Origin: an uncultured Candidatus Hydrogenedens sp.
Lineage (GTDB): Bacteria; Myxococcota; UBA4151
Assembly: GCA_902574205.1 (NCBI GenBank)
Contig: CACGMS010000003.1
Span: 1-58,287, forward strand
Length of the DNA stretch: 58,287 nucleotides
Reading direction: 5' to 3'
Shown here: positions 10,724-30,273 of the stretch, piece after piece
How the letters are laid out: each line of letters begins with the position of its first letter
How positions within the stretch are numbered: the stretch's first letter is position 1
The notes under the pieces: model-generated
What the model was told of the DNA's origin: nothing
Database searches by the model: none
The model's input: only the letters and a program-made list of their open reading frames with translations
Translations under genes and position numbers: made by a program

Positions 10724-11385
10724 CCGCTTCGCCGTTCCAGTTTACCCGCTTCGAGATGGTAGGTTGGATGAGGAAATCGCCTAAGGATTTCACTGTCATG
10801 GGTTGCGACCAGAACGGTTGCCCCGCGCGACGAGGCGAGATCGATCAACCCGAGCACCTGCAGACTCAACGCTTCATCGAGATTACCGGTGGGTTCATCA
10901 CACAGGAGCACTTGCGGGTCGCCCACGAGCGCCCGAGCAATCGCTACTCGTTGTTGTTCGCCACCAGAGAGTTGAGGGACTCGACGTTTGGCAAGGCTGC
11001 CAATGCCCACATCATCAAGGGCTTCCATCGCTCGACGATGCGCAAGTCTTCGATCAACGCCACGCAACTCCAAAACAACACGAACATTTTCGAGTGCGGT
11101 TCGAGTTTTCAGTAATCGGAAATCCTGAAAGATAACAGCAACTCGGCGTCGAACCATAGCGAGTGCCCGAGCGTCTTGAGGTCTGAGGTTGTGACCTGCG
11201 ATAGTGATATGACCATCGTCTGGCGAGTCAGCGCCGTACAAAAGTCGCAGCAGTGTCGATTTCCCAGCGCCACTCGCCCCAGTAAGAAACGCAAAGCTAC
11301 CGCGATCGAGTTTGAGACCAACTTCATCGAGGACGGGACGGCGTTGCTGCGGGAAGCGCCGCGTCACCTGATGTATTTCGATCAT
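10720..11385 (-). CDS. ftsE: Cell division ATP-binding protein FtsE
   Basis: Walker A GASGAGKST, IFQDFRLL, LSGGEQQRVAIARA, DEPTGNLD. Confidence 0.93.
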   Translation of the reverse strand: MIEIHQVTRRFPQQRRPVLDEVGLKLDRGSFAFLTGASGAGKSTLLRLLYGADSPDDGHITIAGHNLRPQDARALAMVRRRVAVIFQDFRLLKTRTALENVRVVLELRGVDRRLAHRRAMEALDDVGIGSLAKRRVPQLSGGEQQRVAIARALVGDPQVLLCDEPTGNLDEALSLQVLGLIDLASSRGATVLVATHDSEILRRFPHPTYHLEAGKLERRSG

Positions 11386-11526: not shown

Positions 11527-11791
11527 TGGTAAGGCCAAGAGTTTTCAACAGATCGCAAAACTACGCTTTTTATCGGGGTTGGGCCGCGGCCGCACTGGCT
11601 GGCCGTACTTTCAACGACTTGCGCATCAAAGCGTGAAGATGTGATTAAGCGCACAGCATCATTTTTTGCGCTTGGCTTGACGTCGTCGTTGCCTTGATTT
11701 CCTTCAGTGGCCTATCAACTGGCCATCGAGGCCAATTCGAAAGCTTCGATTTGGGAACTCTCTGAGGAACCCCCCAGTTGGAGAATCGATC

Positions 11792-11920
11792 ATGACGCTA
11801 TCAGAGCTTGCACAACATCTTACTCGTGAAGAGATGGCGGCCTTTGGAATGTGGCCGAGCGCGAGTGAGGAAGACGAGCACTTGAGCGATGATTGTCACC
11901 ACCAAGAAGAACTCAACTAG
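11792..11920 (+). CDS. Unannotated 42-aa acidic small protein
   Basis: GGAG lies 8 nt before ATG; MTLSELAQHLTREEMAAFGMWPSASEEDEHLSDDCHHQEELN; its stop overlaps the convergent sctT stop (CTAG). It is below the ORF-track size cut-off. Confidence 0.45.
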   Translation: MTLSELAQHLTREEMAAFGMWPSASEEDEHLSDDCHHQEELN

Positions 11921-12744
11921 CGCATCAAGCGAAGCAGTTCTTCAAGACGCTGAAGGAAGACGACGCCTTCAGCGGCGAGCACTTGAATGGTGGTCGCTAA
12001 ACCTAACGCAAACAACCAGACGCCTGCGATGGCTTTGGCGGGCAGACTCAAAAAGTAAGCTTGGATTTGCGGGGCTGTACGGTTGAGCAGGCCAAAGGTT
12101 AAATCGGTCAGAAAAACCGCCACAAGTATCGGCATCGCAAGAGCGACTGCGACCATGAGAATACGAGCAGCGCTGACCATGATGAGTTCTGCGAAGGCGC
12201 CGATCCCCGCGGCTTGAAATTGAGGCATCTCGGTCACGGGTAAACCCACAAAACTGGTGAACAGCGCTCCGAGAAAGAAGCGGTGTCCTCCGATACTTAG
12301 AAAGATGACGAGGAACAGTTGAAAGCTCAAATTACCAAAAACTGAACTTCGTTCTTTGAGTTCGGGAACGAGCGCCGTCGCCATATTGGTACCGCGCAGT
12401 AAATCGACCAATCGACCAAGCATGTCAGCGATCAAAAATAATTCGTATAAAATAAAGCCGATACAAAATCCGATAAACACTTCTTTGAGCATCAACACCA
12501 AGAAAGCGATGGGCGTCGTTGGTGGGGGCACTGTGTTGCCTGCAGAAACGACTGGGTAGACCAGCAGTGCGAGCAGCACGGCTAATCCAATCTTTACCGG
12601 CTCTGGTGCATTTTTACCGCCGAGAAATGGGATCATCACCACAACTGGCAAAAGGCGCCCAAGAATGAGACCAAACAGGACAAGTTGCTCGGTGCTTTGC
12701 CTGCTCAGCAGTAGCCTGTCTAAAACCCAACCTACGTCACTCAT
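11917..12744 (-). CDS. sctT: Type III export gate subunit SctT/FliR
   Basis: R...V..PFLGG...P..VKIGLA, KE.FIG..IG, G.LVD..RG, FL..GGH, LLNRTAPQIQAYFLSLPAK; start at the ATGA overlap with sctS. Confidence 0.92.
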   Translation of the reverse strand: MSDVGWVLDRLLLSRQSTEQLVLFGLILGRLLPVVVMIPFLGGKNAPEPVKIGLAVLLALLVYPVVSAGNTVPPPTTPIAFLVLMLKEVFIGFCIGFILYELFLIADMLGRLVDLLRGTNMATALVPELKERSSVFGNLSFQLFLVIFLSIGGHRFFLGALFTSFVGLPVTEMPQFQAAGIGAFAELIMVSAARILMVAVALAMPILVAVFLTDLTFGLLNRTAPQIQAYFLSLPAKAIAGVWLFALGLATTIQVLAAEGVVFLQRLEELLRLMR

Positions 12745-13019
12745 CGCAGCAAGGGCACAAAGCCAGTGAAACACAGATGAGCAAATTGAAGTAAGAAGCC
12801 GCCCACCCAGGCTCCTGTGATGGCGAGCAACAAAAATACCGCAATGACTTTGGGTACAAAGCTCAACGTGGCTTCTTGAATTTGAGTCGTCGCTGAGAAA
12901 AGTGCGACCGCCAAACCAACGACTAGGCTGCCAATAACAGTAGGCGCTGAGGCGAGCATGACGAGCATTAATGCCTCGTTGGTTACCTGCAGGACAAATT
13001 GTTCAATTTGGCCGTACAT
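12741..13019 (-). CDS. sctS: Type III export gate subunit SctS/FliQ
   Basis: SAP..IGSLVVGL.VALFSATTQIQEATLSFVPK. Confidence 0.93.
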   Translation of the reverse strand: MYGQIEQFVLQVTNEALMLVMLASAPTVIGSLVVGLAVALFSATTQIQEATLSFVPKVIAVFLLLAITGAWVGGFLLQFAHLCFTGFVPLLR

Positions 13020-13778
13020 TTATGTGTATCCCATCACTAAACCTTGAGTGAGAAGATGCCAGCCATCCACGAGCACAAAGAGAAGCAGTTTGAACGGTAA
13101 CGAAATCGTTGTCGGCGACAACATCTGCATACCGAGAGCCATCAAAATATTACTGACGACCATATCAATGACCAAGAAGGGCAGAAAGATAATGAAGCCA
13201 ATTTGAAAGGCTTCGGTTAGTTCGCTGACTACAAAAGCCGGGATAAGCACCATATAGTCATCAGCGCTAATACCTGCTCGCTGAGCCTTAGGCCGCATAC
13301 GCTTCGCCAGCATGTAAAACATCTTTCGATCTTTGGCGCTGGCATGTCGTTTGAGAAACTGTCGCATCGGCTCGGCACCGACAATCATCGCTTCTTTGAG
13401 GACACCGAAATTCTTTCCTTGAAGCAGATTTTCACCTTCTGCTTGTTTCGTGACCTCTTGAGCGTCGACGTACATCCGCTCCATCACCGGACTCATGGTA
13501 TAGACTGTGAGAATAATAGCGAGACCGGTAATGACGGTATTCGGCGGTATTTGCTGGGTGCCGATCGCTTGGCGAGCGATGGACAGTACGACCGCCATTT
13601 TAACAAAGCTGGTCACCATCATCAGGACGAAGGGGACGAGTGCTAAGCCAGCCAGCGCCGTCATCAGGATCAGCGGTCGGTTTGCTATACTGTCGTTACC
13701 CATCAACTCGCTGACGTTGAGATTCTGGGCGATAACCAAAGGAGGTGCCACCATGGCACTCGCGATCAAAAACCTCAT
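13020..13778 (-). CDS. sctR: Type III export gate subunit SctR/FliP
   Basis: MMVTSFVK.AVVLSI.RQAIGTQQIPPN; PAFVVSELTEAFQIGFIIFLPFLVIDMVVSNILMALGMQMLSPTTISLPFKLLLFVLVDGW. SFVK is the SctR-type variant (FliP usually SFTR). Confidence 0.96.
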   Translation of the reverse strand: MRFLIASAMVAPPLVIAQNLNVSELMGNDSIANRPLILMTALAGLALVPFVLMMVTSFVKMAVVLSIARQAIGTQQIPPNTVITGLAIILTVYTMSPVMERMYVDAQEVTKQAEGENLLQGKNFGVLKEAMIVGAEPMRQFLKRHASAKDRKMFYMLAKRMRPKAQRAGISADDYMVLIPAFVVSELTEAFQIGFIIFLPFLVIDMVVSNILMALGMQMLSPTTISLPFKLLLFVLVDGWHLLTQGLVMGYT

Positions 13779-14116
13779 CCGTTCTCAGTCTCCGAGACTT
13801 GAGATGAGTGAAGATGAGCCAAGTGCGTGATCGCTCCCTCGTTGGTGCCGATCAAACGACGCTCGCCCTCAATATTGATGATATGAACCGAAGCTTTGGG
13901 TGTGAGCGCAAGGGACTCTTCAATCTCAAGACGCTCACCTTTTCTCTGGCTAAGACCGGGAAAACGCTTGAGAAAGTGCGTTAATAAGAGCATTCCGCCG
14001 ACCACCAGAACGAGGACAAGAACCATCCACACAAGCATCCAGCCAAACGACGTTCCTGTATGGACGGGAACTGTTGGCGGCGGAATCGGATTGGTTGCTC
14101 CGATTAGACTGACCAC
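13775..14116 (-). CDS. fliO: FliO-like membrane chaperone of the export gate
   Basis: One TM followed by LEIEESLALTPKASVHIINIEGERRLIGTNEGAITHL (FliO pattern); canonical position before fliP/sctR. Confidence 0.8.
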   Translation of the reverse strand: MVSLIGATNPIPPPTVPVHTGTSFGWMLVWMVLVLVLVVGGMLLLTHFLKRFPGLSQRKGERLEIEESLALTPKASVHIINIEGERRLIGTNEGAITHLAHLHSSQVSETENG

Positions 14117-14419
14117 TGGCTTACTCGCACACCCAATTCGCCATCGATATTGAGCAACTCGCCTCGACCGACAAGCCGTCCCGCTAGCGTGAGATCAACT
14201 TCAGACCCAACAGGCTTCCCTAGACGTAAAACAGAACCGACTTCGTAGGTCGAGACGTGCGCTAGACTCAGACGAAGTCGACCGAGCTCAGCAGCTAAGG
14301 TCAGTTCGACATCTTCCGCGAGTACGGTCGATAAATCTGCTGCCTGCTGTATTTCCGAAGCTTCGGCCTCGTCGGTATCAGGTTCTGGGGTATGCACTGG
14401 CTCGCTCATGACGGCCTCC
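14104..14419 (-). promoter_or_regulatory. Internal RBS and in-frame ATG14409 producing a 101-aa SctQ-C (FliN-like) chain
   Basis: Minus strand reads GGAGG-CCGTC-ATG-AGC-GAG, in frame, in the linker just before SPOA2. Confidence 0.7.
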
Positions 14420-15225
14420 ATTAGATCGAGTTCGACAATGCGAAAGGCACCGTCTTCAGTGAGTTCACAATCAGCTCGGCGCCGAGCGCCGGGGGCTGAT
14501 AAACCGCAGCGTCCGCTGGGGTTTCCTTCGTCGGATAAGGTCAGGTTAGCATCATCTAATATGATGACATCGCCCGGTTCAATGCTCAGTAATTCCTCAT
14601 GGTTTAGCTTGGCTATGCCCACGCTTAAAGCCATCTCAAAGGGCAATGCATACAGCGGGCTATGCGAAGAGACTTGACGCGTGGTCGGTCGAGCTTCCGG
14701 GCAGTGATGAAAACGAATTTGAATTTGCCCAGCGACCAAGTCTCCGCGACCGGCCAAAATGACCACAGGGCCCTCGCCAAGATCATCGGTCGGCGGGCTT
14801 GATAGGTCAGTCAAGACAGGGACGGGTAAGACGGAAACCGAAGATCTTAGCTGCGACATCCAATCGAGGATGAGGTACTCAAAGACACCGAGTTCGACCG
14901 CTGTCAGCGAACGAGCAGGGCGGGCTTGGTCTTGGGTAGCACCGAGTACTTCATCCACAGCAGCTAGGGCTAGGGGACCTGCCACGCGAACCGAGACGTC
15001 CAGTCCATCGCCACGCCAGCGAAAGCCCACACATTGTTCCTCCGGCAAGGTCCAATCGCCAGCGATCCCGACGACAGACGGCAGATCCGAACATCCAGGC
15101 GGCTTGGGCAGAAGCGCTTGGTTTTCGGTCACCAAGCCAGGCAGACGCTCACGCAGCGTACTGGTTAGTTCCACTTGATCGCTCGTTAGGGAAGGAAGAC
15201 CCTCCCAATTATAGCCCTGTTCCAT
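14104..15225 (-). CDS. sctQ: SctQ (FliM/FliN-like) cytoplasmic ring protein with two SPOA domains
   Basis: GGAGG lies 10 nt before ATG15225; SPOA1 (L...ELL.IEPGDVIILD) and SPOA2 (AELGR..LSL..V.....G.VL.L...GRGEL..IDGELGVRV). Confidence 0.88.
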   Translation of the reverse strand: MEQGYNWEGLPSLTSDQVELTSTLRERLPGLVTENQALLPKPPGCSDLPSVVGIAGDWTLPEEQCVGFRWRGDGLDVSVRVAGPLALAAVDEVLGATQDQARPARSLTAVELGVFEYLILDWMSQLRSSVSVLPVPVLTDLSSPPTDDLGEGPVVILAGRGDLVAGQIQIRFHHCPEARPTTRQVSSHSPLYALPFEMALSVGIAKLNHEELLSIEPGDVIILDDANLTLSDEGNPSGRCGLSAPGARRRADCELTEDGAFRIVELDLMEAVMSEPVHTPEPDTDEAEASEIQQAADLSTVLAEDVELTLAAELGRLRLSLAHVSTYEVGSVLRLGKPVGSEVDLTLAGRLVGRGELLNIDGELGVRVSQWSV

Positions 15226-15322
15226 GGGCACTTGACCTCCCGTGTCTGCGCAGCGCGTGCACGACACCGTCGCAAGCTAGTGGCGCGAGCACAGACCGTA
15301 AAGGGGGCGCGCTCAATCCAGT

Positions 15323-16273
15323 TTAGGCTTGGTCCACTTTCAGTTCGTTGAGGTCGAGTCCTTTATCCCGAAACACAGCGGCTAACTCCGTGTGATGGGC
15401 GGCAAGCATACGGCTGCCTTCTTTGTTGTCGCCACTGATTTGAATGCGTACTTTGCCATCTTTAGCCTGGATGCTCAGGCGCAGTCCGGCCAGGAGATTG
15501 CCACCCAGTTCAATATCGAATCGTGCGTCTCCGTGTTGGTCGATTCCCACAAAGACCTTGCGCGCTAGCGCTTCGAGCAATGCCTGCGGGATTTTGGGGC
15601 CGCCAGCGGCCCCGGGTTTCCCTTCGGCCCGAGCGCTTAGTGAACCAATCCCTTCAATAGCCGAAGCAGTTGCACCAGCAACCGCTCGTTGAGCGCGTGC
15701 ACCTTTGAGTTGGGTTTGTCGCTCGTCTTGCGTTTCTCGACTACGCTCTTGGCGTTGCGTCGCCTCTTGACCGTGGCTTTGCTGAACGCCCTGTTGGCTG
15801 ATTTGACGCTGTGTTTCAACGCCTGTGCGTTGACGCTCTTGGCTCTGCGATGCCTTGCCTTCAAGTTCGCCTTGATGACTGTGCGCGTCGGTGGCTCGTT
15901 CTTTACCGACGGTATTCGCGGCGCGATGGGCTACCGCTCGTTGTTGACCGAGGGCTGACTTCTGTGAAGATCCTGGCCGTTGGCGCGCTGCATTGAGCAC
16001 GGCTCGCGCATTTTCTTTAGCCGTCTTTTTCTTCGGTTGGGGCCGGGTTTGTTTGGGTAACTGTTTGGTCTGGTTCTTGGTGTCAGTTTGTCGCGGTTGA
16101 GTCTGTTGTTGGCTTTTAGGGTTCTCTTGGGTTTTCCCGCTACGCTCCATGGCGGACTTAAATGCCTGTCGAGTTTCATTACGAGACTTTGTATCGCGAG
16201 CCTTGTCTTGACGGACTTGATCCTGTCTTTTGGCATCCGCACGTTTTTGGTCGCGGCGTCGAATTTCAGACAT
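15323..16273 (-). CDS. FliK/SctP-like molecular-ruler protein
   Basis: AGGAG RBS; Q/R/K/T-rich low-complexity N-terminus; C-terminal T3S4-like domain (FDIEL...L.GLRLSI...DGKVRI......L......L......GL.L..L.V); lies directly before sctQ. Confidence 0.72.
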   Translation of the reverse strand: MSEIRRRDQKRADAKRQDQVRQDKARDTKSRNETRQAFKSAMERSGKTQENPKSQQQTQPRQTDTKNQTKQLPKQTRPQPKKKTAKENARAVLNAARQRPGSSQKSALGQQRAVAHRAANTVGKERATDAHSHQGELEGKASQSQERQRTGVETQRQISQQGVQQSHGQEATQRQERSRETQDERQTQLKGARAQRAVAGATASAIEGIGSLSARAEGKPGAAGGPKIPQALLEALARKVFVGIDQHGDARFDIELGGNLLAGLRLSIQAKDGKVRIQISGDNKEGSRMLAAHHTELAAVFRDKGLDLNELKVDQA

Positions 16274-16309
16274 AGAAACAAACTCCTATCTCTTTATCGT
16301 CGCCAGAAC

Positions 16310-19300
16310 TCACGGGATGCTGACGCTAAAGCCATGACGATCGTTTGCGTTCGCCGGGAAGCTGCCGGTGAGTCCGCCTTGATCCGTCAACCGGATGGTC
16401 CAAGTGTAGTCGGAGTTATGGACCAAGGCTGCCTCTCCACTGAGAGGATCAGGCGGCGCTGCGTAGGCTGTATCCACCGGCACCCAAACGATCGGTCTTA
16501 GACCATGAACAGCGTGCCAAACCAACGCGACGACATCATGATTGGTGTCGCCACCCGCTAGGTGGTTTCCAATTCCATTGACGGTCAATCCGCCAGGAAG
16601 ATTCGCCGAAGACAACGTATCGTCACTAGGGTTTGCCTCAGCTGTGCCTAACCAGGCTTCATTGCCTCCAGAGAGGACGATATAGGTGGTGTCGCTTTGC
16701 GCCACAATACTGCAACCTTCGGTTAGCTCCAGGCTATCTCCTGTGCCGCTCGGAGTAATCGTCCAACTTGGCATGACCACCCCCGGGTTTAGTCGTCCGC
16801 CAAGGACTTGAACAGGATTTCCCGTTCCAGGTACGACTCGATAGTCGTCACTGGCTCCAAGACGTGTAGTTTGGAAGTCCGTAGCAACCGTAACCGGTGC
16901 TCCAGCAGGAATGGATGTGATGGTCCAGGGGTCGCCAGGAACCAACGGTTCATCAAGCACGTAGGTCAACAATTGAGCAAATGATGCGAGGACATGACTT
17001 CGACACCAAAGTAATGCTCGTGAGCCGTCTTCACCTAGAGTACTTAAGCGCACTGATGAACATGACGGAAATCCGGCAATCAGGTTTCGGTCATCCCAGG
17101 TGATTGTCCCGCCAGCGTCTGTACCGAGTAGGTGTTGCCCCGACTGGGTGACACGCAGCCATGTGCCATTCGATAAAGCAGTGATTCCGTCGTTTGAAGA
17201 CCAGGCTACTGGTGCTGCTAATCCCGCCATTTGCGCTAAACTGGATGTCCACACATTGTGGTCAAGGTTGAGAATATGAACCAATTGCGAGTTACCGTGA
17301 CTAAACCAGTAAATATCGTCGTTACGACGTACCGCATCGCCAGCCGCAGCAATTGCGATATTTGGTGGGCGCCAGCGCGGGAAGCGCGCCGTAAAGTCGA
17401 CACCACTGGCTAGGTCTGCCGAAAGGTTTCCGCTGCTCCAGATCACAGTGTTGGTGTTGTTCGAGTAGACTTGCACTTCTGCCGTTCGGCTTTGACTGAT
17501 CTGATTAGTCGTAACGTCAAAGGGATCATTACTGGTTGCAGTGAATTCAGGCCAAAGCTCGAGGCTCACGGCAGGGTCATTGGAGTCATTATCGACTCGC
17601 GGGTTCGTGGGGGTTTCGGGTGCAGTATTCGCCTTGTTGAAGATCGTGTTTCCTGAACTGGTTCGAATGCGATCACAAAAGCTTTCGCTCAGTCGCCAAG
17701 TACAATTTAAGCTGTTGTTTGAGCCTAAGCTCAAAGTGGTGGGTTCCGTGACTGTAAAGGACCCATTATTCGCTGTGGAGTCGGCTTGGTTCGTCTCTGT
17801 TCCGCATGTAAATTGACCGACAACTACCATCGACCCACCATTCGTATTCGATCGTGTCCCTGTCATGATGGGTTGATAATCAGCCAGGCCGGACGAGCGG
17901 TTGTTCACGGATGTGCTAAAGGTAGGGGTCGCTGTCCATGTACCGTCAACAGTATCACCTCGAAGCGTGAAACTTGTACCCGTTATTTGTTGGTTACCCA
18001 CGGCATCACGTGCGCGCAAAGTGACACTGTACTCGGTATGGTTCACCCAATTAAATCCTTGAGGCACAAAACTCCAAGCGCCGTTTACTTCGTTGACCGC
18101 AACATTGGACCCGTCGGCTGGGAATCCAGCCGGTAAAGGGCTAATTTGCACGTTGATCCCTACGGTGTCGGCCGTGCCTCTCAAGCCGGCAAGCGCTGTG
18201 GTTCCTGCATTGAGGCAACGAAAGTTACGCGCAACGCCAAATGTCGCTGCCACAGCGGGTGTGCTTAGACTAGGCGCTGTATCCGGCGCCGTGCTATCGA
18301 CGACCAGGGTAAACGGACTACCGCTGGTAAAACCGGTCGCTGCACTCACATCGTCCGCTCGAGGTGTGAGCACAAATTCATCACCATGGGATGCGCTACC
18401 GGGTACCTGATAGTTGACGGTGGTGGAGAAGTTTACGCCGCTGTTGCCAGCGGTTTCACCCACTAGGGTTGTATTGCCCCCAGCCAAAACACTCAGATCA
18501 ACGGTTTCAATGCCCGAGTTGGGATCGGTAGCACTCAGGTTAACCGCGATGGTCTCACCAGCCACAACCGCAAATCGAGCTCCGCCGAGTTGGCGATTGG
18601 CTCCCAACTGGGGAATCCCAACAATCGAAATGGGTGCAACGTCATCGAGGACACTGAGTAGAGTGGATGCAACGGCCGAGTCATTGGTTGCGACATCGGT
18701 TGATTGAACATGAACCGTGACTTGGGTGCCATGCGTGAGCGTTGATGCGACGGTGAGCTCAGAGTTGGTGGTGGTCGTTGTCGGCGCGCCGAGGATCGTC
18801 CGGCTTATTGGAGAAAAACTACCCTGAGCAGGAACGTCTAAAGAAAAGCTCAGACTTGCCACACCTGAGGATGCATCATTTGCTGTAGCTGTCATCGTCA
18901 CGCCATTGGTCAGACTGACCTGGGTTGGCGGTATAACCCAGCTCACGGTGGGGTTCGTGACATCTCTTATGGTGATGGTGACCGTTGCGGTTCCATCCGT
19001 ACTGAACGTGCTCTGATCCGTAGCGATAACGCTGACATTTTGGCTGCCAAGAGTTCGGCAATCAGCGGGAATGGTCCAGGTTCGCTGTACGCTCTGTTCT
19101 GTCGTCTCGCCGCCGAGGGTGACCGGATGAGGCGCAGAGATCGTTCCGCAGGGAACAGTGAACGACAATCCCGCCAGTCCGCTGCTTGCATCGGTTACGG
19201 TGGCGGTCATCGTGACCGAGGTTGAGACATCGACGGTAGTCCCCGAGAGAATGAGCGCCGTGCTCGGTGCTTCGTCGTCTCTAAGGGTGAGCTGATGTTG

Positions 19301-22300
19301 AACCGATGTTGCTGCATTCCCGGCGCCATCTTGTCCGCCTAAAGTCAGCGTGATCACGCCCGGGGGACAGCCTTGAAGACCACTCAGGGTAAAGGTTTGA
19401 TCGGATAGTGCCGGCCCGTTGCTAACTGCTAGTATGCCGCCGTTGCTGACCGTGCCGCAGCTGCTGTTTAGCGTGATGCGTGCGACCCCAGCGCCAGCGT
19501 CGGTCGCCCGAACTAAGATGTTCGCAGAGGCGCTCGAGTTAACCGTTGTTGGGGGGGATCGGAAACTCACTACTGGATCGGTTGCGTCGACAAGGTTTAG
19601 GCTGAGTGTAGCTGGGTTTGACGTATTCCCTGCAGCATCCACCATGCGGACTTGGACGTCTTGTATACCGACCGAGTCGCAATCGCTCGGTACCGTCCAA
19701 CTCTGACTGACCGACACGAGATTTTTCGGCTGATTATTAAAGCTGTAGGGGCCGGCGCTACCGCAAGGAAGCGTGAATTCAGCGGAGGCTAATCCTGAAC
19801 TCACATCCTGACCGCGGATTTGCAGTTGAATCGAGTCACCGGTGTTGATCTGCACCGGCAAGGGGTTGGTAATGGCGACTTGCGTCGGGGGTTCTACGTC
19901 ATCGACGAGTCGCACAGTTGCCGCTGGTGTGGTCGTGTTCGATTGAGCGGATCCATCGATCGCTGAGGCTTGAAGATTCACCGACAGTTGATGGGTGGCA
20001 TCTGAAGCAACCGGCAACGCAAAGGTGTGCGTGCACACTTCTGTGTTGTTGCAGTTGTGGGTCAACGTTTGATTCAGCTCCGCAGCGCTCAACTCGATCC
20101 GGGCGATACCACTTGAGCGGTCACGAGCCGTGACACGAATGGCGCTGCTGGCGCCCGTGTTGAGTTGATCGGGTAGCGAATTGATTGAGACTTGGATGGG
20201 AGCAGTTCGATCAACGACGCTGAGGCGCAGGTTTCCCGTCGCCGTCAATTGCGTTTGGTTGCCTTCACCATCGGTCGCAGTAAACAGAATGCTGTATTGT
20301 CCTTCTTCGGCATCGCTTGGAATCGCCACGGTGAAGTCTTGGTTCTGGCTGGCGACGCGATCGTTCGGCGTATAGTTGACAGTTTGAGTGCGCTCAATTT
20401 GGTTGTTTGAATTGAATTGATTGATGGTGGTGACATAACTCGTTTGCGCAACAACGCCATTGAGGTCACGCGCTCGGATACGAAGGTTGGCACTTCCACC
20501 GACGGTACCTTCCGTGACCTCAGTGACTGTGATGATCGGTCCAGCCTCATCGCGGATCGTACCCGACGCCGTGATGGTTCGCTGGTTTGACGCGGCAGCC
20601 TGATCGGTGGCGGTTACAGAGACCTCAACAGGCAAGCCCGTGCCGATCGAACCGGGGTTTTCGGCGACCGTACCTGTAAAGACGACTGTCCCTTGATTCA
20701 CTACACTCTGGTTGTTCCATGTAATGTGTTGAACGTTGCTCACTTGAATTCGGGCAATACCGGTTGAGTTGATGTCGGTTGCGTTGACTTCGAGTCGAAC
20801 CGGTCCACCGGGTACTAAGATGTTGGGGTTAAACATCGCCGAAACCGATGGTTGCACGTTATCAACCAGATTAAATTGCACACGTTGTCCATCGCTTGAA
20901 TTACCTGAGTCATCGGTAATCCGAGGGACCGCAGAAATCGTTCCTTCTTTTGCGGTGATAGGAATCGGAATGCTCACGCCAACAGCGTTTGCCTCTTGCG
21001 ATGTGTCGTCATCGAGAACTCTGGTCATCGATTGTGCTCCGACTTCGGTTTGACCCACGAGCAGATCGACGAGGCTGACCGAGGCGATGTAGCGAGCAGC
21101 GTCGGAGCCGCTAATCTGAACACTGGCTTGTCGACCATTGCTCAGATTGAGTGATCCTCCACCGCTCACTTGAGATAGCCTTGGTGGTTGGTTGTCTTGA
21201 GGTAAAAATGAGAGCGTTGAAGAGGATGGGTTGGGTGGAGTCGCATTATCCCAAACGGTGACTCGAGCGGTCCAATCTGTGATCGCTCTAAGATCGTTTG
21301 GCGTCGGTAGCTGAAGGATCATTGGACTGGCGTAAGCATCCAGCTGGTTTTGCGCCGGATCAATCGATTCGACCTCACTCTCGACCGCTGGATCACCTTG
21401 TGAGTTTTCGACGCGAAGTTGGAGCCGTGAGATGGCGCCAAAGGTATCGGTTGCGCTTACACTGACGCGTAAACGCCCGCCGACTTCAGGTTGCGCCGGC
21501 GAGCCTGACTCATCGAGCAAGACAATGTTCGTGATGCTGGGCGCCACATCGTCATTAATCTCAAGGTTAAACGGTTCGGCGAGCCCTGCGTTGTGATCGG
21601 CGCCAGTACCCACATCATCAAACCCGCCGGCGATGAGGTTAAAGCCCTGGCCGTCTGGACCGTCAGGTGCCTGAATTTGAAAATTTTGCTCCAGGCTGCT
21701 GCTCAGGTCTGGACAAGCATCTTCGTCAGGTGGTGGTGCCGGGGGAGAACCATCAACTTGTGTCCACAACTGGCGCATATTGCTGTGCTCATCGACGCCC
21801 TGGACTGTGACCTCCAACTGCGCCCCGGGATGGACCCCATCACCAGGGGTCAGTGCCCGCGCTGTTTGTCCATCAATTAGCCAGCGAACCCGGGTAATCG
21901 TGACCTCGGGTGCTGTTGTATCAGCACAGGTTCCAATACATAGTTGACGCGCTTCGATCGCCGTTTTGTTGGCGGTTGCAGCACGGTCGGCAACTTCGAG
22001 GAGGTCAATGGCTAAGGTGCCACTACGCAGTCCGACAGGAACCGGAACAGCGATGATGGCAATTTCATCATCAGCCTGCGGAACGAATCCAGTTAGACTG
22101 CCCGAGATGGTTTTTGTGATGCAGCCATTGCTCAAGATGCGCAGTCGGTAGTTCAGCGCTGCCGCTCCGCTGTGCCGATCATAGACGCGCACTCTCAAAG
22201 CAATCGCACGGTCTGGGATCAACCGCTCGGGTTGAAGCAGCTGAACTTCTGGTGCCGAGGTGTCGGCGACGGTTGCTTGGTGAACAGGCGAGCGAGCAAA

Positions 22301-22681
22301 GCGTCGAGCTGGACCGTCATCTTGAGCCTGAGCCTCAAACTGAAGGTTGCTTCCATCGCGGCCGAACTCGGCAGGTAGCTCCAGCACAGTGGTGGCGTCA
22401 CCACAATCGACGCTCGGATCGAGTCGAACACAGACGATGCCTTCACTCGTTCCTGTAATGGACGCGCTGAAGCGTTGGCTCGATCCACTTCGTGAAACCT
22501 CCAGGTGAAGACTACTAATCTGTCGCTCAAGCGGTGCGGTTGCGCTGAGCGTAAAGCGATTAGACTCCGCAGTGCGTAGTTCCGTGGGACCTTGGAGTGT
22601 GACGGTTGGACTGCTGGTGTCTACGACCACGGTCGGCGCAGAGCAGGATGCAAGAACCAAGATAGAGAACAGTTTTTTCAT
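16310..22681 (-). CDS. Giant surface lipoprotein with ~15 tandem Ig-like repeats and a C-terminal head domain
   Basis: MKKLFSILVLAS-C lipobox; repeats of ~100-120 aa opening with D-x-x-x-P (DTSSP, DTSAP, DTTAP, DDVAP, DNQPP, DNVQP, DEAGP, DRTAP, DDVEP, DATDP, DDEAP, DVTNP, DDVAP, DSTAP) and closing with A.D..GN-type strands. Confidence 0.85.
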   Translation of the reverse strand: MKKLFSILVLASCSAPTVVVDTSSPTVTLQGPTELRTAESNRFTLSATAPLERQISSLHLEVSRSGSSQRFSASITGTSEGIVCVRLDPSVDCGDATTVLELPAEFGRDGSNLQFEAQAQDDGPARRFARSPVHQATVADTSAPEVQLLQPERLIPDRAIALRVRVYDRHSGAAALNYRLRILSNGCITKTISGSLTGFVPQADDEIAIIAVPVPVGLRSGTLAIDLLEVADRAATANKTAIEARQLCIGTCADTTAPEVTITRVRWLIDGQTARALTPGDGVHPGAQLEVTVQGVDEHSNMRQLWTQVDGSPPAPPPDEDACPDLSSSLEQNFQIQAPDGPDGQGFNLIAGGFDDVGTGADHNAGLAEPFNLEINDDVAPSITNIVLLDESGSPAQPEVGGRLRVSVSATDTFGAISRLQLRVENSQGDPAVESEVESIDPAQNQLDAYASPMILQLPTPNDLRAITDWTARVTVWDNATPPNPSSSTLSFLPQDNQPPRLSQVSGGGSLNLSNGRQASVQISGSDAARYIASVSLVDLLVGQTEVGAQSMTRVLDDDTSQEANAVGVSIPIPITAKEGTISAVPRITDDSGNSSDGQRVQFNLVDNVQPSVSAMFNPNILVPGGPVRLEVNATDINSTGIARIQVSNVQHITWNNQSVVNQGTVVFTGTVAENPGSIGTGLPVEVSVTATDQAAASNQRTITASGTIRDEAGPIITVTEVTEGTVGGSANLRIRARDLNGVVAQTSYVTTINQFNSNNQIERTQTVNYTPNDRVASQNQDFTVAIPSDAEEGQYSILFTATDGEGNQTQLTATGNLRLSVVDRTAPIQVSINSLPDQLNTGASSAIRVTARDRSSGIARIELSAAELNQTLTHNCNNTEVCTHTFALPVASDATHQLSVNLQASAIDGSAQSNTTTPAATVRLVDDVEPPTQVAITNPLPVQINTGDSIQLQIRGQDVSSGLASAEFTLPCGSAGPYSFNNQPKNLVSVSQSWTVPSDCDSVGIQDVQVRMVDAAGNTSNPATLSLNLVDATDPVVSFRSPPTTVNSSASANILVRATDAGAGVARITLNSSCGTVSNGGILAVSNGPALSDQTFTLSGLQGCPPGVITLTLGGQDGAGNAATSVQHQLTLRDDEAPSTALILSGTTVDVSTSVTMTATVTDASSGLAGLSFTVPCGTISAPHPVTLGGETTEQSVQRTWTIPADCRTLGSQNVSVIATDQSTFSTDGTATVTITIRDVTNPTVSWVIPPTQVSLTNGVTMTATANDASSGVASLSFSLDVPAQGSFSPISRTILGAPTTTTTNSELTVASTLTHGTQVTVHVQSTDVATNDSAVASTLLSVLDDVAPISIVGIPQLGANRQLGGARFAVVAGETIAVNLSATDPNSGIETVDLSVLAGGNTTLVGETAGNSGVNFSTTVNYQVPGSASHGDEFVLTPRADDVSAATGFTSGSPFTLVVDSTAPDTAPSLSTPAVAATFGVARNFRCLNAGTTALAGLRGTADTVGINVQISPLPAGFPADGSNVAVNEVNGAWSFVPQGFNWVNHTEYSVTLRARDAVGNQQITGTSFTLRGDTVDGTWTATPTFSTSVNNRSSGLADYQPIMTGTRSNTNGGSMVVVGQFTCGTETNQADSTANNGSFTVTEPTTLSLGSNNSLNCTWRLSESFCDRIRTSSGNTIFNKANTAPETPTNPRVDNDSNDPAVSLELWPEFTATSNDPFDVTTNQISQSRTAEVQVYSNNTNTVIWSSGNLSADLASGVDFTARFPRWRPPNIAIAAAGDAVRRNDDIYWFSHGNSQLVHILNLDHNVWTSSLAQMAGLAAPVAWSSNDGITALSNGTWLRVTQSGQHLLGTDAGGTITWDDRNLIAGFPSCSSVRLSTLGEDGSRALLWCRSHVLASFAQLLTYVLDEPLVPGDPWTITSIPAGAPVTVATDFQTTRLGASDDYRVVPGTGNPVQVLGGRLNPGVVMPSWTITPSGTGDSLELTEGCSIVAQSDTTYIVLSGGNEAWLGTAEANPSDDTLSSANLPGGLTVNGIGNHLAGGDTNHDVVALVWHAVHGLRPIVWVPVDTAYAAPPDPLSGEAALVHNSDYTWTIRLTDQGGLTGSFPANANDRHGFSVSIP

Positions 22682-22758
22682 CGTGCAGGAAGTGTTGCGC
22701 ATGCGAGCGCGCACGGCAAGGTTGTCGATCGCTGATCTGCTCAAATTTTTTGATTTAG

Positions 22759-25341
22759 CTAAAATAAACCAGCGAGCGGGCGCATCACCCGTTTGAAGTC
22801 CAGACTAAAGCCGAGCGAAAATTGATGGTCACCAAAAGCGCTTGAATCGGCGCTGTCATGGGTTTGCCAGATTGTATGAGCAATCACGATCGCTGATCGC
22901 AGGTTTCCGGCGACGGGAATTGCGAGTTCGAGCCGTTCACCAACAGCCCAAAGCAGTGTGTTTGGCAGCGGCTCGTTTTCCGGAAGATAATAACGGGCAT
23001 CGATAAGCAGTCGAGCCTCGATACCAGCAACTTTACGTCGCCAGTCCATCAGGCCAGAGACGGCAAATCGCCAGCCCGGTAGGGCGGTCGTTGATGTGGG
23101 GTTAGGGGGAGTGAGGATGCGTGTGAGATCTTGAGATCCTGTGGCTGCCAATCGAGCTTCATGCAGTCTTTTTGTCTTGGGTATTGCCAGCCCTGTGTTG
23201 AGCTCGAGCCGTGTTTGACGGGGGGTTTCAACTTCCGAATTGGGATCTCCAGCTGTCCACTCACTATCCCAGACCACGTTGGTAAAGGGGCGCACTTTTC
23301 CTTTTGCGTGAATAGCTTCCAACGTTAGTGACCAGTCATCGAGCGATTCTTTATCGAGAGCAGCTACGCCGTTGTCTTCGGGAAAGAGGTCTCGTGTGTA
23401 CGCAGCGACACCACGCACGCTCACTTCGAGGTCTTTGATCGGTTGAATCAAGCGCAGATCCAGATGCCCGCCGATGCTCGTTCGGCTAGGTTGATTTGTG
23501 CGAGGGTCTTCGAGTGTTCGATGGGCTACGGGGGCTCGTAATTCCTGACTAAAGGCACTCAATTGCAGTTTGTCGATGCGCAAGACCGTACGAGTACGAG
23601 TCGCGGGCATGCGCATCAGGGACAGCACCCGAGTTCGAGGATCACTCTTGAGTTGCCTCTCAAGCAACGGAAGCAAAACACGCGGCAGCGTCTTACGGTC
23701 GCTTTTGTGACTGACTAGTCGACCGTTGGACAGGGTTACCCACTCTCGGTTTTGGTTGCCGATTCGACTCTTGAGTTGGTCCGCAATTTGGGCTGTAGTG
23801 ATCACCTTTACGGGGCGGCCTGAGCTCAGCTTTTCGCGGCTTCTCCAGGCGAAGACCTGCGACTTCAATACGGTAGCGATTGTACCTCCATCAGCTGTCA
23901 GGGAGACCAAGGGGGATGGGATAACGAGTCGCCCGAGAAGATCGAGGCGAGATAAACCACCTGGCAGGACTAAGAAGGGGTTCATCTTAGGTAAGACGAG
24001 CGCGTCAGCTTGAGCTGCGCGTAAGATCACACCAGCGACTAAGTCAGTGGTCCTCTCAGCGTCGTATTTCGTCTTGTCGAGGGCAGGGACCAGCGGTTTA
24101 GATAAGGTTGGATACAGGTTGTGACGCACTGCATTGACCTGTCGAGCAAGCGCAGGGGACGCTGGCACCCGCTCGTCGATTGTATGGACCTCAACCGAGG
24201 CATGCATGGCACCGAGCTTGAGTTCGGTAATTGCATTGGTCGGTATTCGAATGAGAACTGGCGACTGGCGATGGTGCAGCGCGTGCTTGTATTCGGGAAG
24301 AGCGAACGAACCGGTTCGAGGTTTGAGGTTCAAGCTCCCGGGGATCGCGATTAGTTGGATCCGTGAGTCATCAAGATAAGGTGCCGCATCTTGTGCGCTT
24401 CGTGCCAGCATAATCACGCGATGGATCGGACCCTTCTGGCTGAGGTGTTTCAGCACCTTATCAATACGTTTACTGTGTTCTTTATGAGGTATTTGTTTCC
24501 CGATTGAGGTGATTGCCAGTAAGGCCACGCGTTGGTTTCCTCGCACGATGATAGCACCTTGCTGCTCAATCGGGTTGTCTTTGCCAAAGGTGTTCAGTGC
24601 ACTCGTTCTTAAGCGTGAAAGTTCAGCTTTGAGTTGGCTTGGTGCAACCACCGAATCGTTCGGTCCGAGTAATAGGTATTCTGGACCTTTTTGGGCGAGC
24701 CCATTGACGGTTGTTTCACGATGTAGGCTGGGTCCATCACGAACCCACGACCAACCTTCGAGTAAGTTTCCTAAACTAACCCACAGGTTCATCGGGTCCT
24801 GCCGTCTCAGTTGATCCAAAGCGTAAAACCGACGCGACCCATCACCAATCGGTCGCGAAATCTCAGTAATTGGGCCCGTGGTTCCAAGTTGGCCTTCCGC
24901 TCGCCAGCGGATCTCCCATTGGTCCAGCTGTTGGTTAAGTGCGTGATCTTGAGCCGATGAACTATTGCTCAAAACAAAGCACTTCAGTGGCGGAGTGTTT
25001 GTCGCTGACCACTGTTCTTGGATGGCTTCAAGCCAGTGGGGTTTAACTCTTAAAACGGTCGCAAGCCTAAGGCTTTTCTTCCGTGTAATGAGCCATGATA
25101 GTGGCGTTTTTAATACCCAAATCTTTTCGCTAACGGTGCGTTTAAGCGGTATCTTTAATTGCCGCTGAAACGCATGGAGATCGCTCGATAGGCATGCTCG
25201 GCCGCCATGTGTCATCGCTCCATAACCCGTTTGTTCGAGCCGAACATCCTCTAATGCCGGCAAAATAGGTACAAACTGGCGCCCTGAGACTCCATCACTA
25301 TCAGCTGTAATTAGGAGCGATAAGCTTGCCAACCAGACCAT
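22759..25341 (-). CDS. Degenerate 5'-nucleotidase (UshA-like) domains fused to a C-terminal outer-membrane beta-barrel
   Basis: Spacing of metallophosphoesterase motifs is kept but the ligands are lost (VSLGNLLEG, LLGPND, MLARS, IAIPGS). A nucleotidase C-domain follows (DLVAGVILRAAQADA..., G.LSRLDL....), then ~270 aa of amphipathic strands ending FSLGFSLDF. Confidence 0.6.
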   Translation of the reverse strand: MVWLASLSLLITADSDGVSGRQFVPILPALEDVRLEQTGYGAMTHGGRACLSSDLHAFQRQLKIPLKRTVSEKIWVLKTPLSWLITRKKSLRLATVLRVKPHWLEAIQEQWSATNTPPLKCFVLSNSSSAQDHALNQQLDQWEIRWRAEGQLGTTGPITEISRPIGDGSRRFYALDQLRRQDPMNLWVSLGNLLEGWSWVRDGPSLHRETTVNGLAQKGPEYLLLGPNDSVVAPSQLKAELSRLRTSALNTFGKDNPIEQQGAIIVRGNQRVALLAITSIGKQIPHKEHSKRIDKVLKHLSQKGPIHRVIMLARSAQDAAPYLDDSRIQLIAIPGSLNLKPRTGSFALPEYKHALHHRQSPVLIRIPTNAITELKLGAMHASVEVHTIDERVPASPALARQVNAVRHNLYPTLSKPLVPALDKTKYDAERTTDLVAGVILRAAQADALVLPKMNPFLVLPGGLSRLDLLGRLVIPSPLVSLTADGGTIATVLKSQVFAWRSREKLSSGRPVKVITTAQIADQLKSRIGNQNREWVTLSNGRLVSHKSDRKTLPRVLLPLLERQLKSDPRTRVLSLMRMPATRTRTVLRIDKLQLSAFSQELRAPVAHRTLEDPRTNQPSRTSIGGHLDLRLIQPIKDLEVSVRGVAAYTRDLFPEDNGVAALDKESLDDWSLTLEAIHAKGKVRPFTNVVWDSEWTAGDPNSEVETPRQTRLELNTGLAIPKTKRLHEARLAATGSQDLTRILTPPNPTSTTALPGWRFAVSGLMDWRRKVAGIEARLLIDARYYLPENEPLPNTLLWAVGERLELAIPVAGNLRSAIVIAHTIWQTHDSADSSAFGDHQFSLGFSLDFKRVMRPLAGLF

Positions 25342-25391
25342 GGTTTTGACCTATCGAAGCTCGTTTCTATCGACAAGAGATATGCACTTGC

Positions 25392-25417
25392 CGGTCGGCC
25401 GCTAAATCAGTCCTTTA
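25392..25417 (-). promoter_or_regulatory. Weak candidate sigma28-type promoter for the 8-gene minus-strand block
   Basis: Minus strand TAAA-N14-GCCGACCG, ending 51 nt before ATG25341; the -10 matches only 5/8. Confidence 0.3.
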
Positions 25418-25565
25418 GGTTGCCCTTCTTTCAGTAGAGTTAGTCCTCAAAAGTGAAAATTAAGCAGAAAAAAAGTTTTTGAGTAAATGCTGGGGCGGCC
25501 GCGTGCCGATCGCCTTTGAAGGGACGCGAATAAACACACAGGATTTAGGAAAGGCCATAGCGATC

Positions 25566-30266: not shown

Positions 30267-30273
30267 AGATGGC

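What the first reader, a model, noticed from the sequence alone, without database searches (positions are those of the whole stretch)
11917..25341. Candidate new contact-dependent surface system: dead nucleotidase-beta-barrel, giant Ig-stalk lipoprotein and needle-less type III export gate in one block
Seen: eight co-directional genes with short or overlapping junctions (about 77 nt barrel to Ig protein, 36 nt Ig protein to FliK-like with no terminator, about 97 nt FliK-like to sctQ, then overlaps), starting from a promoter region divergent from nrdJ. Known: M. xanthus uses a needle-less T3SS* with a Tad-like apparatus for contact killing, and in type III clusters the genes before SctP/FliK are normally SctN and SctO/FliJ. 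Here those slots hold two exported envelope proteins instead. Inference: an adhesin/receptor plus export-gate module, in which the barrel and Ig stalk could supply outer-membrane and prey-contact functions that a secretin- and needle-less T3SS lacks. Chance juxtaposition is not excluded.
Basis: partly seen in the sequence, partly recalled or inferred. Interest (0 to 1): 0.82.

Follow-up and report, generated by a model that had tools for sequence, protein, structure and literature searches.

The report
Split needle-less T3SS beside envelope genes
The eight-gene block is real, but it looks like a fragment of the known myxobacterial needle-less type III secretion system that landed behind two family-specific envelope genes when the operon broke up, and nothing yet shows that they work together.

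Summary
Eight minus-strand genes lie at the stated coordinates with the stated junctions. They are a catalytically dead 5'-nucleotidase-like domain fused to a 12-strand outer-membrane barrel, a 2,123-aa lipoprotein with about 14 Ig-like repeats, and sctP(FliK-like)-sctQ-fliO-sctR-sctS-sctT.

The type III genes belong to the needle-less T3SS* found across Myxococcota. SctR is 60-65% identical in most families. In 10 of 10 other loci with a detectable sctP, sctN and/or sctO lie just upstream. In this family the system is scattered over at least four loci, and the barrel and Ig genes sit at the sctO|sctP break.

The functional reading is not supported beyond adjacency:
- Both envelope genes are confined to this one family.
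- None of 20 other T3SS* loci carries them.
- None of 18 loci of remote barrel homologues carries type III gate genes.
- Other lineages have clearly unrelated genes (kup, terC, a molybdopterin oxidoreductase) at the same position.
- The surrounding housekeeping synteny is conserved just as well.
- The junction lengths are ordinary for this genome.

Interest is moderate.

The parts
22759..25341 (-). 860-aa pseudo-5'-nucleotidase fused to a 12-strand outer-membrane beta-barrel
   Evidence: No Pfam or NCBIfam hit. AlphaFold model: pLDDT 89.9, pTM 0.80, with 12 long strands at residues 586-853. Foldseek matches the N-terminal ~580 aa to NadN/UshA (E 3.5e-12 to 1e-9) and the C-terminus to NanC, OmpG, FapF and porins (E about 1e-6). 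A family profile hits CD73 and bacterial 5'-nucleotidases at E 9e-18, with the metal-ligand motifs replaced. The N-terminus is an atypical 12-residue uncharged hydrophobic stretch that overlaps beta-strand 1.
16310..22681 (-). 2,123-aa lipoprotein: about 14 Ig-like repeats followed by an all-beta C-terminal region of about 650 aa
   Evidence: Lipobox LVLASC. Repeat-boundary motif xxDxxxPxV about every 105-120 aa from residue 19 to 1460. Pfam DUF4625 (46.7 bits, cut-off 27), DUF7743 and Big_3_4 weak; NCBIfam OmpL47-type domain (43.7 bits, cut-off 40). The C-terminal 622 aa occur only in family f1, in 6 of 301 genomes. The C-terminal model was unusable (pLDDT 39).
15323..16273 (-). sctP (FliK-like; T3S4 switch/ruler protein)
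   Evidence: Charged, Q-rich N-terminus plus a conserved C-terminal domain of about 90 aa. Orthologues sit between sctO and sctQ in 10 other Myxococcota loci. 6 of 11 hit Pfam Flg_hook and 4 of 11 hit HpaP. The window protein itself has no Pfam hit.
14104..15267 (-). sctQ (cytoplasmic-ring protein; probable start at the ATG at 15225)
   Evidence: TIGR02551 SpaO_YscQ 102.3 bits (cut-off 100.8); Pfam FliMN_C E 5.6e-21.
13775..14116 (-). fliO-like small membrane protein
   Evidence: Pfam FliO E 2.1e-8, 34.6 bits (cut-off 22). TIGR03500 is below its cut-off.
13020..13778 (-). sctR (export gate)
   Evidence: NF009438 263.7 bits and TIGR01102 236.9 bits, both above cut-off. 60-65% identical orthologues in most Myxococcota families.
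12741..13019 (-). sctS (export gate)
   Evidence: Pfam Bac_export_3 E 3.7e-24.
11917..12774 (-). sctT (export gate)
   Evidence: Pfam Bac_export_1 E 8e-50.
8763..11385 (-). ftsE-ftsX-M23 peptidase (EnvC-like); housekeeping genes lying between sctT and the S41/FHA pair
   Evidence: Pfam ABC_tran, FtsX plus FtsX_ECD, and Peptidase_M23. ftsX is single-copy in the available assembly.
7966..8766 (-). S41 peptidase; a recurrent T3SS* neighbour in other families
   Evidence: Pfam Peptidase_S41. Homologues lie directly upstream of the tandem-FHA gene and sctN in L050, L051, L054 and L059.
6145..7863 (-). Tandem FHA - transmembrane helix - TPR protein; candidate SctD-like component
   Evidence: Two FHA domains (also Yop-YscD_cpl hits), a hydrophobic segment at about residues 285-305, and C-terminal TPR. 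Homologues lie next to sctN in four other families.
25342..25478 (.). 137-nt divergent intergenic region between the barrel gene and nrdJ
   Evidence: An in-frame TAG lies four codons upstream of the barrel ATG. No sigma-70-like or GG-N10-GC site was picked up here. In genus g2 nrdJ is inverted and lies 76 nt upstream of the barrel gene on the same strand.

Best explanation
The block is a mosaic operon. Its downstream six genes (sctP, sctQ, fliO-like, sctR, sctS, sctT) encode the substrate-switch protein, cytoplasmic ring and core export gate of the needle-less 'Myxo' type III system (T3SS*). In this family that system works together with three other loci: sctJ-orf299-sctL-sctN-sctO, sctU with a TPR chaperone-like gene, and a solitary sctV. 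A tandem-FHA/TM/TPR protein 4 kb downstream probably also belongs to it.

The ancestral operon order was sctJ...sctN-sctO-sctP-sctQ...sctT. It broke between sctO and sctP, and the sctP-T fragment now lies 36 nt behind two family-specific envelope genes. One of these is a catalytically dead UshA/CD73-like two-domain module fused to a 12-strand outer-membrane barrel; it probably binds a ligand or serves as an anchor and is not an enzyme. The other is a Lig-like giant lipoprotein with about 14 Ig repeats and an all-beta head, most likely a surface adhesin.

Shown here: the gene identities, the scattered T3SS*, the break point, the dead active site, the barrel fold, and the family-restricted distribution.

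Inferred: read-through transcription from the barrel/Ig promoter probably now drives, or helps drive, sctP-T. The coupling is therefore at most regulatory. The envelope pair acts as its own surface module and is not the missing outer-membrane part of the T3SS*.
For: Gene identities.

Ancestral order: in 10 of 10 other Myxococcota loci with a detectable sctP, sctN and/or sctO lie upstream on the same strand (both in seven). Two further loci have sctN-sctO upstream of sctQ.

Scattered system: in the window's own genome sctJ-x-L-N-O are on contig C36 and sctV is on C126. In relatives, sctV is flanked by unrelated genes and sctU sits with a TPR chaperone-like gene.

Distribution: barrel close homologues occur only in family f1. 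The Ig head occurs in 6 of 301 genomes, all f1. There is no barrel or Ig hit in 20 T3SS* loci from other families.

Remote barrel homologues: none of 18 loci carries SctJ, L, P, Q, R, S, T or V, and they share no conserved neighbour.

Unrelated insertions at the same place in other lineages: kup between sctP and sctQ; terC; a molybdopterin oxidoreductase plus an ERG4/24-like gene; a PLP enzyme.

Synteny between the two genera is collinear from alaS and the flagellin gene through nrdJ to ddl, so the adjacency is no better conserved than that of housekeeping genes.

Dead enzyme and barrel.
Against: The Ig-to-sctP spacing is 27-36 nt (depending on the start chosen) in both genera, although the Ig and barrel proteins have diverged to 30-39% identity. 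No terminator-like site lies at any junction. sctP-T has no obvious promoter of its own in a 36-nt gap, so co-expression is likely and could reflect shared function.

The T3SS* lacks any known outer-membrane component (PMC10433427, PMC3459982), so an outer-membrane partner is a real open slot.

The family is small (six genomes, two genera). Lack of the genes elsewhere cannot exclude a lineage-specific innovation.

No expression data could be examined.
Confidence: 0.6

Rival explanations
1. One reading: barrel, Ig stalk and the T3SS* gate form one contact-dependent surface system. The barrel supplies the outer-membrane element and the Ig lipoprotein the prey-contact element that a secretin-less, needle-less T3SS* lacks.
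For: The operon-like arrangement is conserved in both genera of the family, with a 27-36-nt Ig-sctP gap and no terminator. T3SS* has no known outer-membrane part and gathers at prey contact sites (PMC10433427). Both proteins are envelope proteins of suitable type.
Against: Barrel and Ig are absent from 20 T3SS* loci in other families. None of 18 loci of remote barrel homologues has gate genes. Unrelated genes occupy the same position elsewhere. Neighbouring housekeeping synteny is equally conserved. The junction lengths are ordinary for this genome. In G002 the barrel-Ig spacer is about 740 nt and holds an extra ORF.
Confidence: 0.2
2. Three unrelated units lie side by side: the barrel gene, the Ig lipoprotein gene and the T3SS* fragment each act independently. 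Barrel and Ig are not partners of each other either.
For: Remote barrel homologues are stand-alone genes with no conserved neighbour and no giant lipoprotein next to them. The barrel-Ig spacer varies from about 52 to about 740 nt within the family. In genus g2 nrdJ lies 76 nt upstream of the barrel gene on the same strand, which shows that tight co-directional packing of unrelated genes is normal here.
Against: Barrel and Ig are adjacent in every family genome where the contig allows. Both are restricted to the same family.
Confidence: 0.15
3. The barrel protein is itself a T3SS* substrate. It lost its normal Sec signal peptide in this family, is exported to the periplasm by the needle-less system encoded downstream, and is then inserted into the outer membrane.
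For: 32 of 41 remote homologues have at least 15 residues with a hydrophobic signal-like stretch before beta-strand 1. Family f1 proteins have only 8-9 residues before it, and an in-frame stop lies 4 codons upstream of the ATG. Abby and Rocha proposed that Myxo systems may translocate proteins only as far as the periplasm (PMC3459982).
Against: The f1 N-terminus (MVWLASLSLLITA|DS) is still a 12-residue hydrophobic run with a small residue at -1. It resembles the very short, uncharged signal peptides of the remote homologues, so it may still work as a Sec signal. No signal-peptide predictor was available. No T3SS substrate of this kind is known.
Confidence: 0.05

Closest known systems
Myxococcus xanthus T3SS* / 'Myxo' non-flagellar T3SS (Abby and Rocha 2012, PMC3459982; reviewed in PMC10433427)
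   Same: It has the SctP-Q-R-S-T, SctJ, L, N, O, U and V gene set and an LcrH-like TPR gene. No secretin, needle or translocon gene lies in any of the four loci. SctR is 60-65% identical to orthologues across Myxococcota, and the gene order within fragments is the same.
   Different: The system is scattered over at least four loci, where other families have one operon or a long and a short locus. The organism also carries a full flagellar export cluster. The sctP-T fragment lies behind two family-specific envelope genes. ftsEX-envC is wedged between sctT and the S41/tandem-FHA pair.
Chlamydiales scattered T3SS loci (described in PMC3459982)
   Same: A functional type III system encoded at about four separate loci.
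   Different: The chlamydial system has a secretin and a needle. This one is the needle-less Myxo type.
UshA / NadN / CD73 5'-nucleotidases
   Same: A homologous two-domain fold (Foldseek E 3.5e-12; profile E 9e-18).
   Different: The metal-ligand and catalytic motifs are replaced: DAGD becomes SLGN, GNHE becomes GPND, and the His motifs are lost. A C-terminal 12-strand membrane barrel is fused to it. No such fusion is in Pfam or NCBIfam.
Leptospira LigA/LigB-type Big-domain lipoprotein adhesins (from general knowledge, not tested)
   Same: An N-terminal lipobox, a long run of Ig-like repeats, and a large non-repeat C-terminal domain as in LigB.
   Different: The repeat family differs (DUF4625, OmpL47-type and Big_3_4-like, where Lig proteins have Big_2). 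It is much longer, and the head domain has no detectable relatives outside the family.
12-strand outer-membrane barrels with an N-terminal extra domain (type Va autotransporters, FapF, NanC/KdgM)
   Same: A C-terminal barrel of 12 strands preceded by short helices and a large N-terminal domain. Foldseek hits NanC and FapF.
   Different: No autotransporter barrel is among the top 50 Foldseek hits. Whether a linker helix sits in the barrel lumen could not be checked, because no model coordinates were available.

Membership tests
Myxo-type needle-less T3SS (T3SS*) | Export gate SctR, SctS, SctT plus SctU and SctV | tested here: met
   SctR, S and T are in the window. A second, non-flagellar SctV is in the window's genome and SctU copies are in relatives.
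Myxo-type needle-less T3SS (T3SS*) | ATPase complex SctN/SctL/SctO and inner-membrane ring SctJ | tested here: met
   C36 carries sctJ (PF01514), orf299, an sctL-like gene, sctN (TIGR01026 562.9 bits) and an sctO-like gene. SctL and SctO are assigned by position and by homology to the same genes in other Myxococcota loci, not by a curated model.
Myxo-type needle-less T3SS (T3SS*) | Orthology with the T3SS-like cluster conserved across Myxococcota | tested here: met
   SctR is 57-66% identical in 264 of 301 phylum genomes, against 37% to the genome's own flagellar FliP.
Myxo-type needle-less T3SS (T3SS*) | No secretin, needle (SctF), tip or translocon | tested here: inconclusive
   None was seen in the four loci examined. 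No genome-wide search for PF00263 or SctF was run, and small ORFs were not all scanned.
Myxo-type needle-less T3SS (T3SS*) | SctD (FHA - TM - periplasmic domain) | tested here: inconclusive
   The tandem FHA-TM-TPR protein at 6145-7863 has the right topology and is a conserved T3SS* neighbour in four families. No SctD periplasmic-domain hit was found.
Myxo-type needle-less T3SS (T3SS*) | Role in prey lysis at contact sites | not testable with these tools
   Uncultured MAG.
FliK/SctP/HpaP (T3S4 proteins) | C-terminal T3S4 (Flg_hook-type) domain | tested here: inconclusive
   The window protein has no Pfam hit at E<=0.01. 6 of 11 aligned orthologues hit Flg_hook (best E 7.9e-7) and 4 of 11 hit HpaP. 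A profile search against PDB sequences found nothing.
FliK/SctP/HpaP (T3S4 proteins) | Position between sctO and sctQ | tested here: met
   Orthologues occupy that position in the seven other Myxococcota loci where sctO, sctP and sctQ were all detected.
5'-nucleotidase / metallophosphoesterase (UshA, CD73) | Two-domain fold and sequence homology | tested here: met
   Foldseek prob 1.0, E 3.5e-12. Profile E 9e-18.
5'-nucleotidase / metallophosphoesterase (UshA, CD73) | Dimetal ligands and catalytic Asp-His (DxH, GD, GNHE, His motifs) | tested here: not met
   In the profile alignment with CD73 the family has 'daGn' where CD73 has DAGD, 'PGatE' for GNHE, and no His at the GH or GGHS motifs. No ligand column is invariant in the 48-sequence alignment.
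Outer-membrane beta-barrel protein | Even-stranded transmembrane barrel with a C-terminal aromatic residue | tested here: met
   Twelve strands of 10-17 residues at high pLDDT. Foldseek hits porins, NanC, OmpG and FapF. The protein ends in ...RPLAGLF.
Outer-membrane beta-barrel protein | Cleavable Sec signal peptide | tested here: inconclusive
   Only 8 residues precede beta-strand 1, and there is no basic n-region. The remote homologues have short signal peptides. No predictor was available.
Slam-type surface-lipoprotein translocon (DUF560 barrel next to its lipoprotein) | DUF560 barrel domain | tested here: not met
   No Pfam family hit the barrel protein at E<=0.01.
Big/Ig-repeat lipoprotein adhesins (Lig-like) | Lipobox plus tandem Ig-like repeats | tested here: met
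   LVLASC lipobox. About 14 repeats. DUF4625 and OmpL47-type domain hits above cut-off.
Big/Ig-repeat lipoprotein adhesins (Lig-like) | Surface exposure and adhesion | not testable with these tools
   Needs experiments.

The most novel reading that the evidence does not exclude
In this flagellated Myxococcota family the sctP-T gate genes were captured into an operon headed by a pseudo-nucleotidase outer-membrane barrel and a giant Ig lipoprotein. These two proteins have become the outer-membrane and prey-contact parts that the needle-less T3SS* otherwise lacks. In the boldest form, the barrel protein has lost a normal signal peptide and is itself exported by the T3SS*.
Probability: 0.18. Interest if true: 0.8.

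Novelty: new variant of a known kind. Interest (0 to 1): 0.4.

Why it matters
How the needle-less myxobacterial T3SS* gets anything across the outer membrane is an open question (PMC10433427, PMC3459982). A lineage in which its gate genes are fused behind outer-membrane and surface proteins would be a natural place to look for the missing partner. The present evidence says this is more likely a rearrangement scar.

Three things are still useful:
- The T3SS* can be scattered over at least four loci and stay intact, and it coexists with a flagellum.
- A tandem-FHA/TM/TPR protein and an S41 protease recur as T3SS* neighbours in several families, which makes them candidate components.
- The pseudo-5'-nucleotidase-barrel fusion defines an unannotated protein family found so far only in Myxococcota-type MAGs (about 50 clusters among 1.8 billion representatives).

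Tried and rejected
- The first genome-contig scan with the barrel protein found nothing. The 48-sequence alignment was too divergent to scan with. A 16-sequence alignment of remote homologues worked.
- The AlphaFold model of the Ig C-terminal 700 aa was unusable (pLDDT 39.4, 5-sequence alignment). No fold search was run on it.
- A profile of the sctP orthologues against PDB sequences gave no hit.
- No shared sigma-54-type or sigma-70-type promoter was found upstream of the barrel gene, sctP, sctJ or sctV.
- No inverted repeats were found in the sctT-ftsE spacer or the nrdJ-barrel spacer.
- Rfam found nothing in the whole window.
- A search for a conserved neighbour of the remote barrel homologues found only antisense shadow ORFs.
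- The Slam-like idea (barrel as translocon for the adjacent lipoprotein) is not supported. There is no DUF560 hit, and remote homologues have no adjacent lipoprotein.
- 'Missing signal peptide means cytoplasmic protein' was rejected, because a 12-strand membrane barrel is predicted with high confidence.

Full report
**1. What is in the sequence**

Pfam and NCBIfam identify five of them:
- sctQ: TIGR02551 at 102.3 bits, cut-off 100.8.
- A FliO-like gene.
- sctR: NF009438 and TIGR01102, both above cut-off.
- sctS.
- sctT.

The 316-aa gene upstream of sctQ has no Pfam hit of its own. Its orthologues in other Myxococcota align over a conserved C-terminal domain. Six of 11 hit Flg_hook (FliK) and four hit HpaP, so it is an SctP/T3S4 protein.

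The 2,144-codon ORF most plausibly starts at the ATG at 22681, giving MKKLFSILVLASC with a lipobox. It has about 14 repeats of 105-120 aa with DUF4625, OmpL47-type and Big_3_4 signals.

No terminator-like site falls in a junction.

**2. The 'dead nucleotidase-barrel' is real**

The 860-aa protein has no Pfam or NCBIfam hit. An exhaustive search found close homologues only in the window's family, plus about 40 remote homologues of 850-1000 aa at 17-22% identity.

An AlphaFold model built on that alignment is confident: pLDDT 89.9, pTM 0.80. It shows an alpha/beta N-terminal part followed by 12 long strands at residues 586-853.

Foldseek matches the N-terminal ~580 residues to NadN and UshA (E 3.5e-12 to 1e-9). 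It matches the C-terminus to NanC, OmpG, FapF and porins.

A profile of the family hits CD73 and bacterial 5'-nucleotidases at E 9e-18. In that alignment the DAGD, GNHE and histidine motifs are replaced. None of the ligand columns is invariant.

The family is therefore a pseudo-enzyme fused to an outer-membrane barrel.

One oddity remains. Family f1 proteins have only 8-9 residues before beta-strand 1, and an in-frame stop lies four codons upstream. By contrast, 32 of 41 remote homologues carry a short, uncharged signal peptide. The f1 N-terminus is still a 12-residue hydrophobic run. I could not decide whether it works as a signal.

**3. Which type III system this is**

The genome is a 2.0-Mb MAG, 60% complete. 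Its phylum contains 9-13-Mb genomes with two SctR copies. Remote barrel homologues come from MAGs titled Myxococcota or Deltaproteobacteria. The phylum is therefore Myxococcota.

The window's SctR is 57-66% identical to an SctR present in 264 of 301 sampled genomes of the phylum. It is only 37% identical to the genome's own flagellar FliP on contig C9, where a full fliPQR-flhBA-flhFG cluster lies. This is the conserved 'Myxo' needle-less T3SS, called T3SS* in M. xanthus (PMC3459982, PMC10433427).

**4. Where the 'missing' genes are**

- The window's own genome carries sctJ, orf299, an sctL-like gene, sctN (613 aa) and an sctO-like gene on contig C36.
- A second SctV sits on a 2.6-kb contig. 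In a relative it lies alone between a BY-kinase and an FAD protein.
- The second SctU in relatives is followed by a small ORF and an LcrH-like TPR protein.

The system is complete but scattered over at least four loci.

**5. The ancestral arrangement and the break**

I fetched 20 SctR neighbourhoods from other families.
- In all 10 loci with a detectable sctP, sctN and/or sctO lie upstream on the same strand (both in seven).
- Two more loci have sctN-sctO upstream of sctQ.
- In four families an S41 peptidase gene and a tandem-FHA gene directly precede sctN.

In the window's family the break is exactly between sctO and sctP, and the barrel and Ig genes sit there. The S41 and tandem-FHA/TM/TPR genes are still nearby (7966-8766 and 6145-7863), separated from sctT by ftsE-ftsX-M23.

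**6. Does adjacency mean shared function?**

Evidence for a link:
- The order barrel-Ig-sctP-...-sctT holds in all six family genomes as far as contigs allow.
- The Ig-sctP gap is 27-36 nt in both genera, depending on the start chosen, although the two proteins have diverged to 30-39% identity.

Evidence against a link:
- The whole neighbourhood of about 30 kb, from alaS and the flagellin gene through nrdJ to ddl, is collinear between the genera. The adjacency is no better conserved than that of housekeeping genes.
- The minus-strand run extends from 630 to 25341 and includes dxs, xseA, ddl and ftsEX.
- Gaps of 36-97 nt are ordinary or long for this genome, where the median co-directional gap is 9 nt. 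In genus g2, nrdJ itself lies 76 nt upstream of the barrel gene on the same strand.
- The barrel and the Ig head are confined to this family. Neither has a hit in the 20 other T3SS* loci.
- Eighteen loci of remote barrel homologues have no SctJ, L, P, Q, R, S, T or V and no shared neighbour. One has a 34%-identity hit to the SctN query, which I read as another ATPase paralogue; this was not checked.
- In other lineages the same stretch of the operon is interrupted by plainly unrelated genes. These are a Kup potassium transporter and TerC between sctP and sctQ, a molybdopterin oxidoreductase with an ERG4/24-like reductase, and a PLP enzyme between sctN and sctO.
- In one genome of the same genus the barrel-Ig spacer is about 740 nt and holds an extra ORF.

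**7. Conclusion**

The most likely account is a mosaic operon produced by fragmentation of the T3SS* locus. The sctP-T fragment probably depends at least partly on read-through from the envelope genes. No comparative evidence makes the barrel or the Ig protein a part of the secretion machine.

Fully independent units get 0.15, and the idea that the barrel protein is a T3SS* substrate gets 0.05.

The Ig head could not be modelled.

**8. Novelty and interest**

- The T3SS* part is a new member of a known kind, in an unusual scattered layout and in a flagellated lineage.
- The pseudo-nucleotidase-barrel family is unannotated and rare.
- The proposed 'new contact-dependent system' is not established.
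- Overall this is a new variant of a known kind, with interest 0.4.

Noticed in passing
window 6145-8766; L050, L051, L054, L059: An S41 peptidase gene and a tandem FHA - TM helix - TPR gene sit directly upstream of sctN in four other Myxococcota families. In this family they stay within 4 kb of sctT. They are candidate T3SS* components, with the FHA protein as a possible SctD equivalent.
   Followed up: partly
own genome C9:32-8288 and window 30232-31080: The MAG has a full flagellar export cluster (fliPQR, flhB, flhA, flhF, flhG) in addition to the T3SS*. A lone flagellin-like gene lies in the window. The same flagellin-alaS arrangement is present in genus g2 (L011:656-1468).
   Followed up: partly
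L056:8731-10638; L050:7232-8338; L068:8921-12269 and 13982-16959: T3SS* operons of other Myxococcota are interrupted around sctP by unrelated genes: kup, terC, a molybdopterin oxidoreductase, an ERG4/24-like reductase and a Cys/Met PLP enzyme. An M10 metalloprotease lipoprotein with PPC domains also lies between sctO and sctN.
   Followed up: partly
own genome C36:6080-7921: SctN is 613 aa, with an extra N-terminal coiled, charged region of about 170 aa that usual SctN/FliI proteins lack. Open frames of 614-649 aa are seen in all family genomes.
   Followed up: no
proteins P0016-P0058 (alignment A3): Remote pseudo-nucleotidase-barrel homologues carry very short signal peptides without any basic residue (for example MLTLALALTLTAAATPQ, MLLALIGAALSQEP). 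They end in ...GAFEL or similar.
   Followed up: partly
L014:14569-15310 (G002:C75): One genome of the same genus has a spacer of about 740 nt between the barrel and Ig genes. It contains a 167-aa ORF with a hydrophobic segment that is absent from the window.
   Followed up: no
L097:5026-11133 (G002:C74): The non-flagellar sctU is preceded by three tandem AIM24-family genes and a metallo-beta-lactamase-fold gene. It is followed by a 142-aa ORF, a 148-aa TPR (LcrH-like) gene and a 365-aa ORF without family hits; these may be a chaperone and substrates.
   Followed up: no
L017:6505-7827 (G004:C1): An FHA-domain sigma-54 activator lies 2.3 kb from the solitary sctV. No sigma-54-type promoter was recognised upstream of the T3SS* loci in the window's genome.
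   Followed up: partly
window 11386-11916: A 531-nt gap without a convincing ORF lies between sctT and ftsE. Another first-stage note places a LexA-like box there. I found no inverted repeat and no Rfam hit.
   Followed up: partly
window 25342-25478: No Rfam family, including cobalamin riboswitches, was found upstream of the B12-dependent nrdJ or anywhere else in the window.
   Followed up: yes
window 36303-41266 and 49020-58287: Three Mrp/Nuo-type antiporter subunit genes and a MoxR-VWA-TPR-BatD (Bat-like) operon lie here, with cysteine-rich DUF7107 and CBM9 secreted proteins between them. None is related to the finding.
   Followed up: no
L084, L085, L088, L092, L094: Several public MAGs titled 'uncultured Enterobacterales' carry the Myxococcota-type pseudo-nucleotidase-barrel gene. 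Their taxonomic labels look wrong.
   Followed up: no
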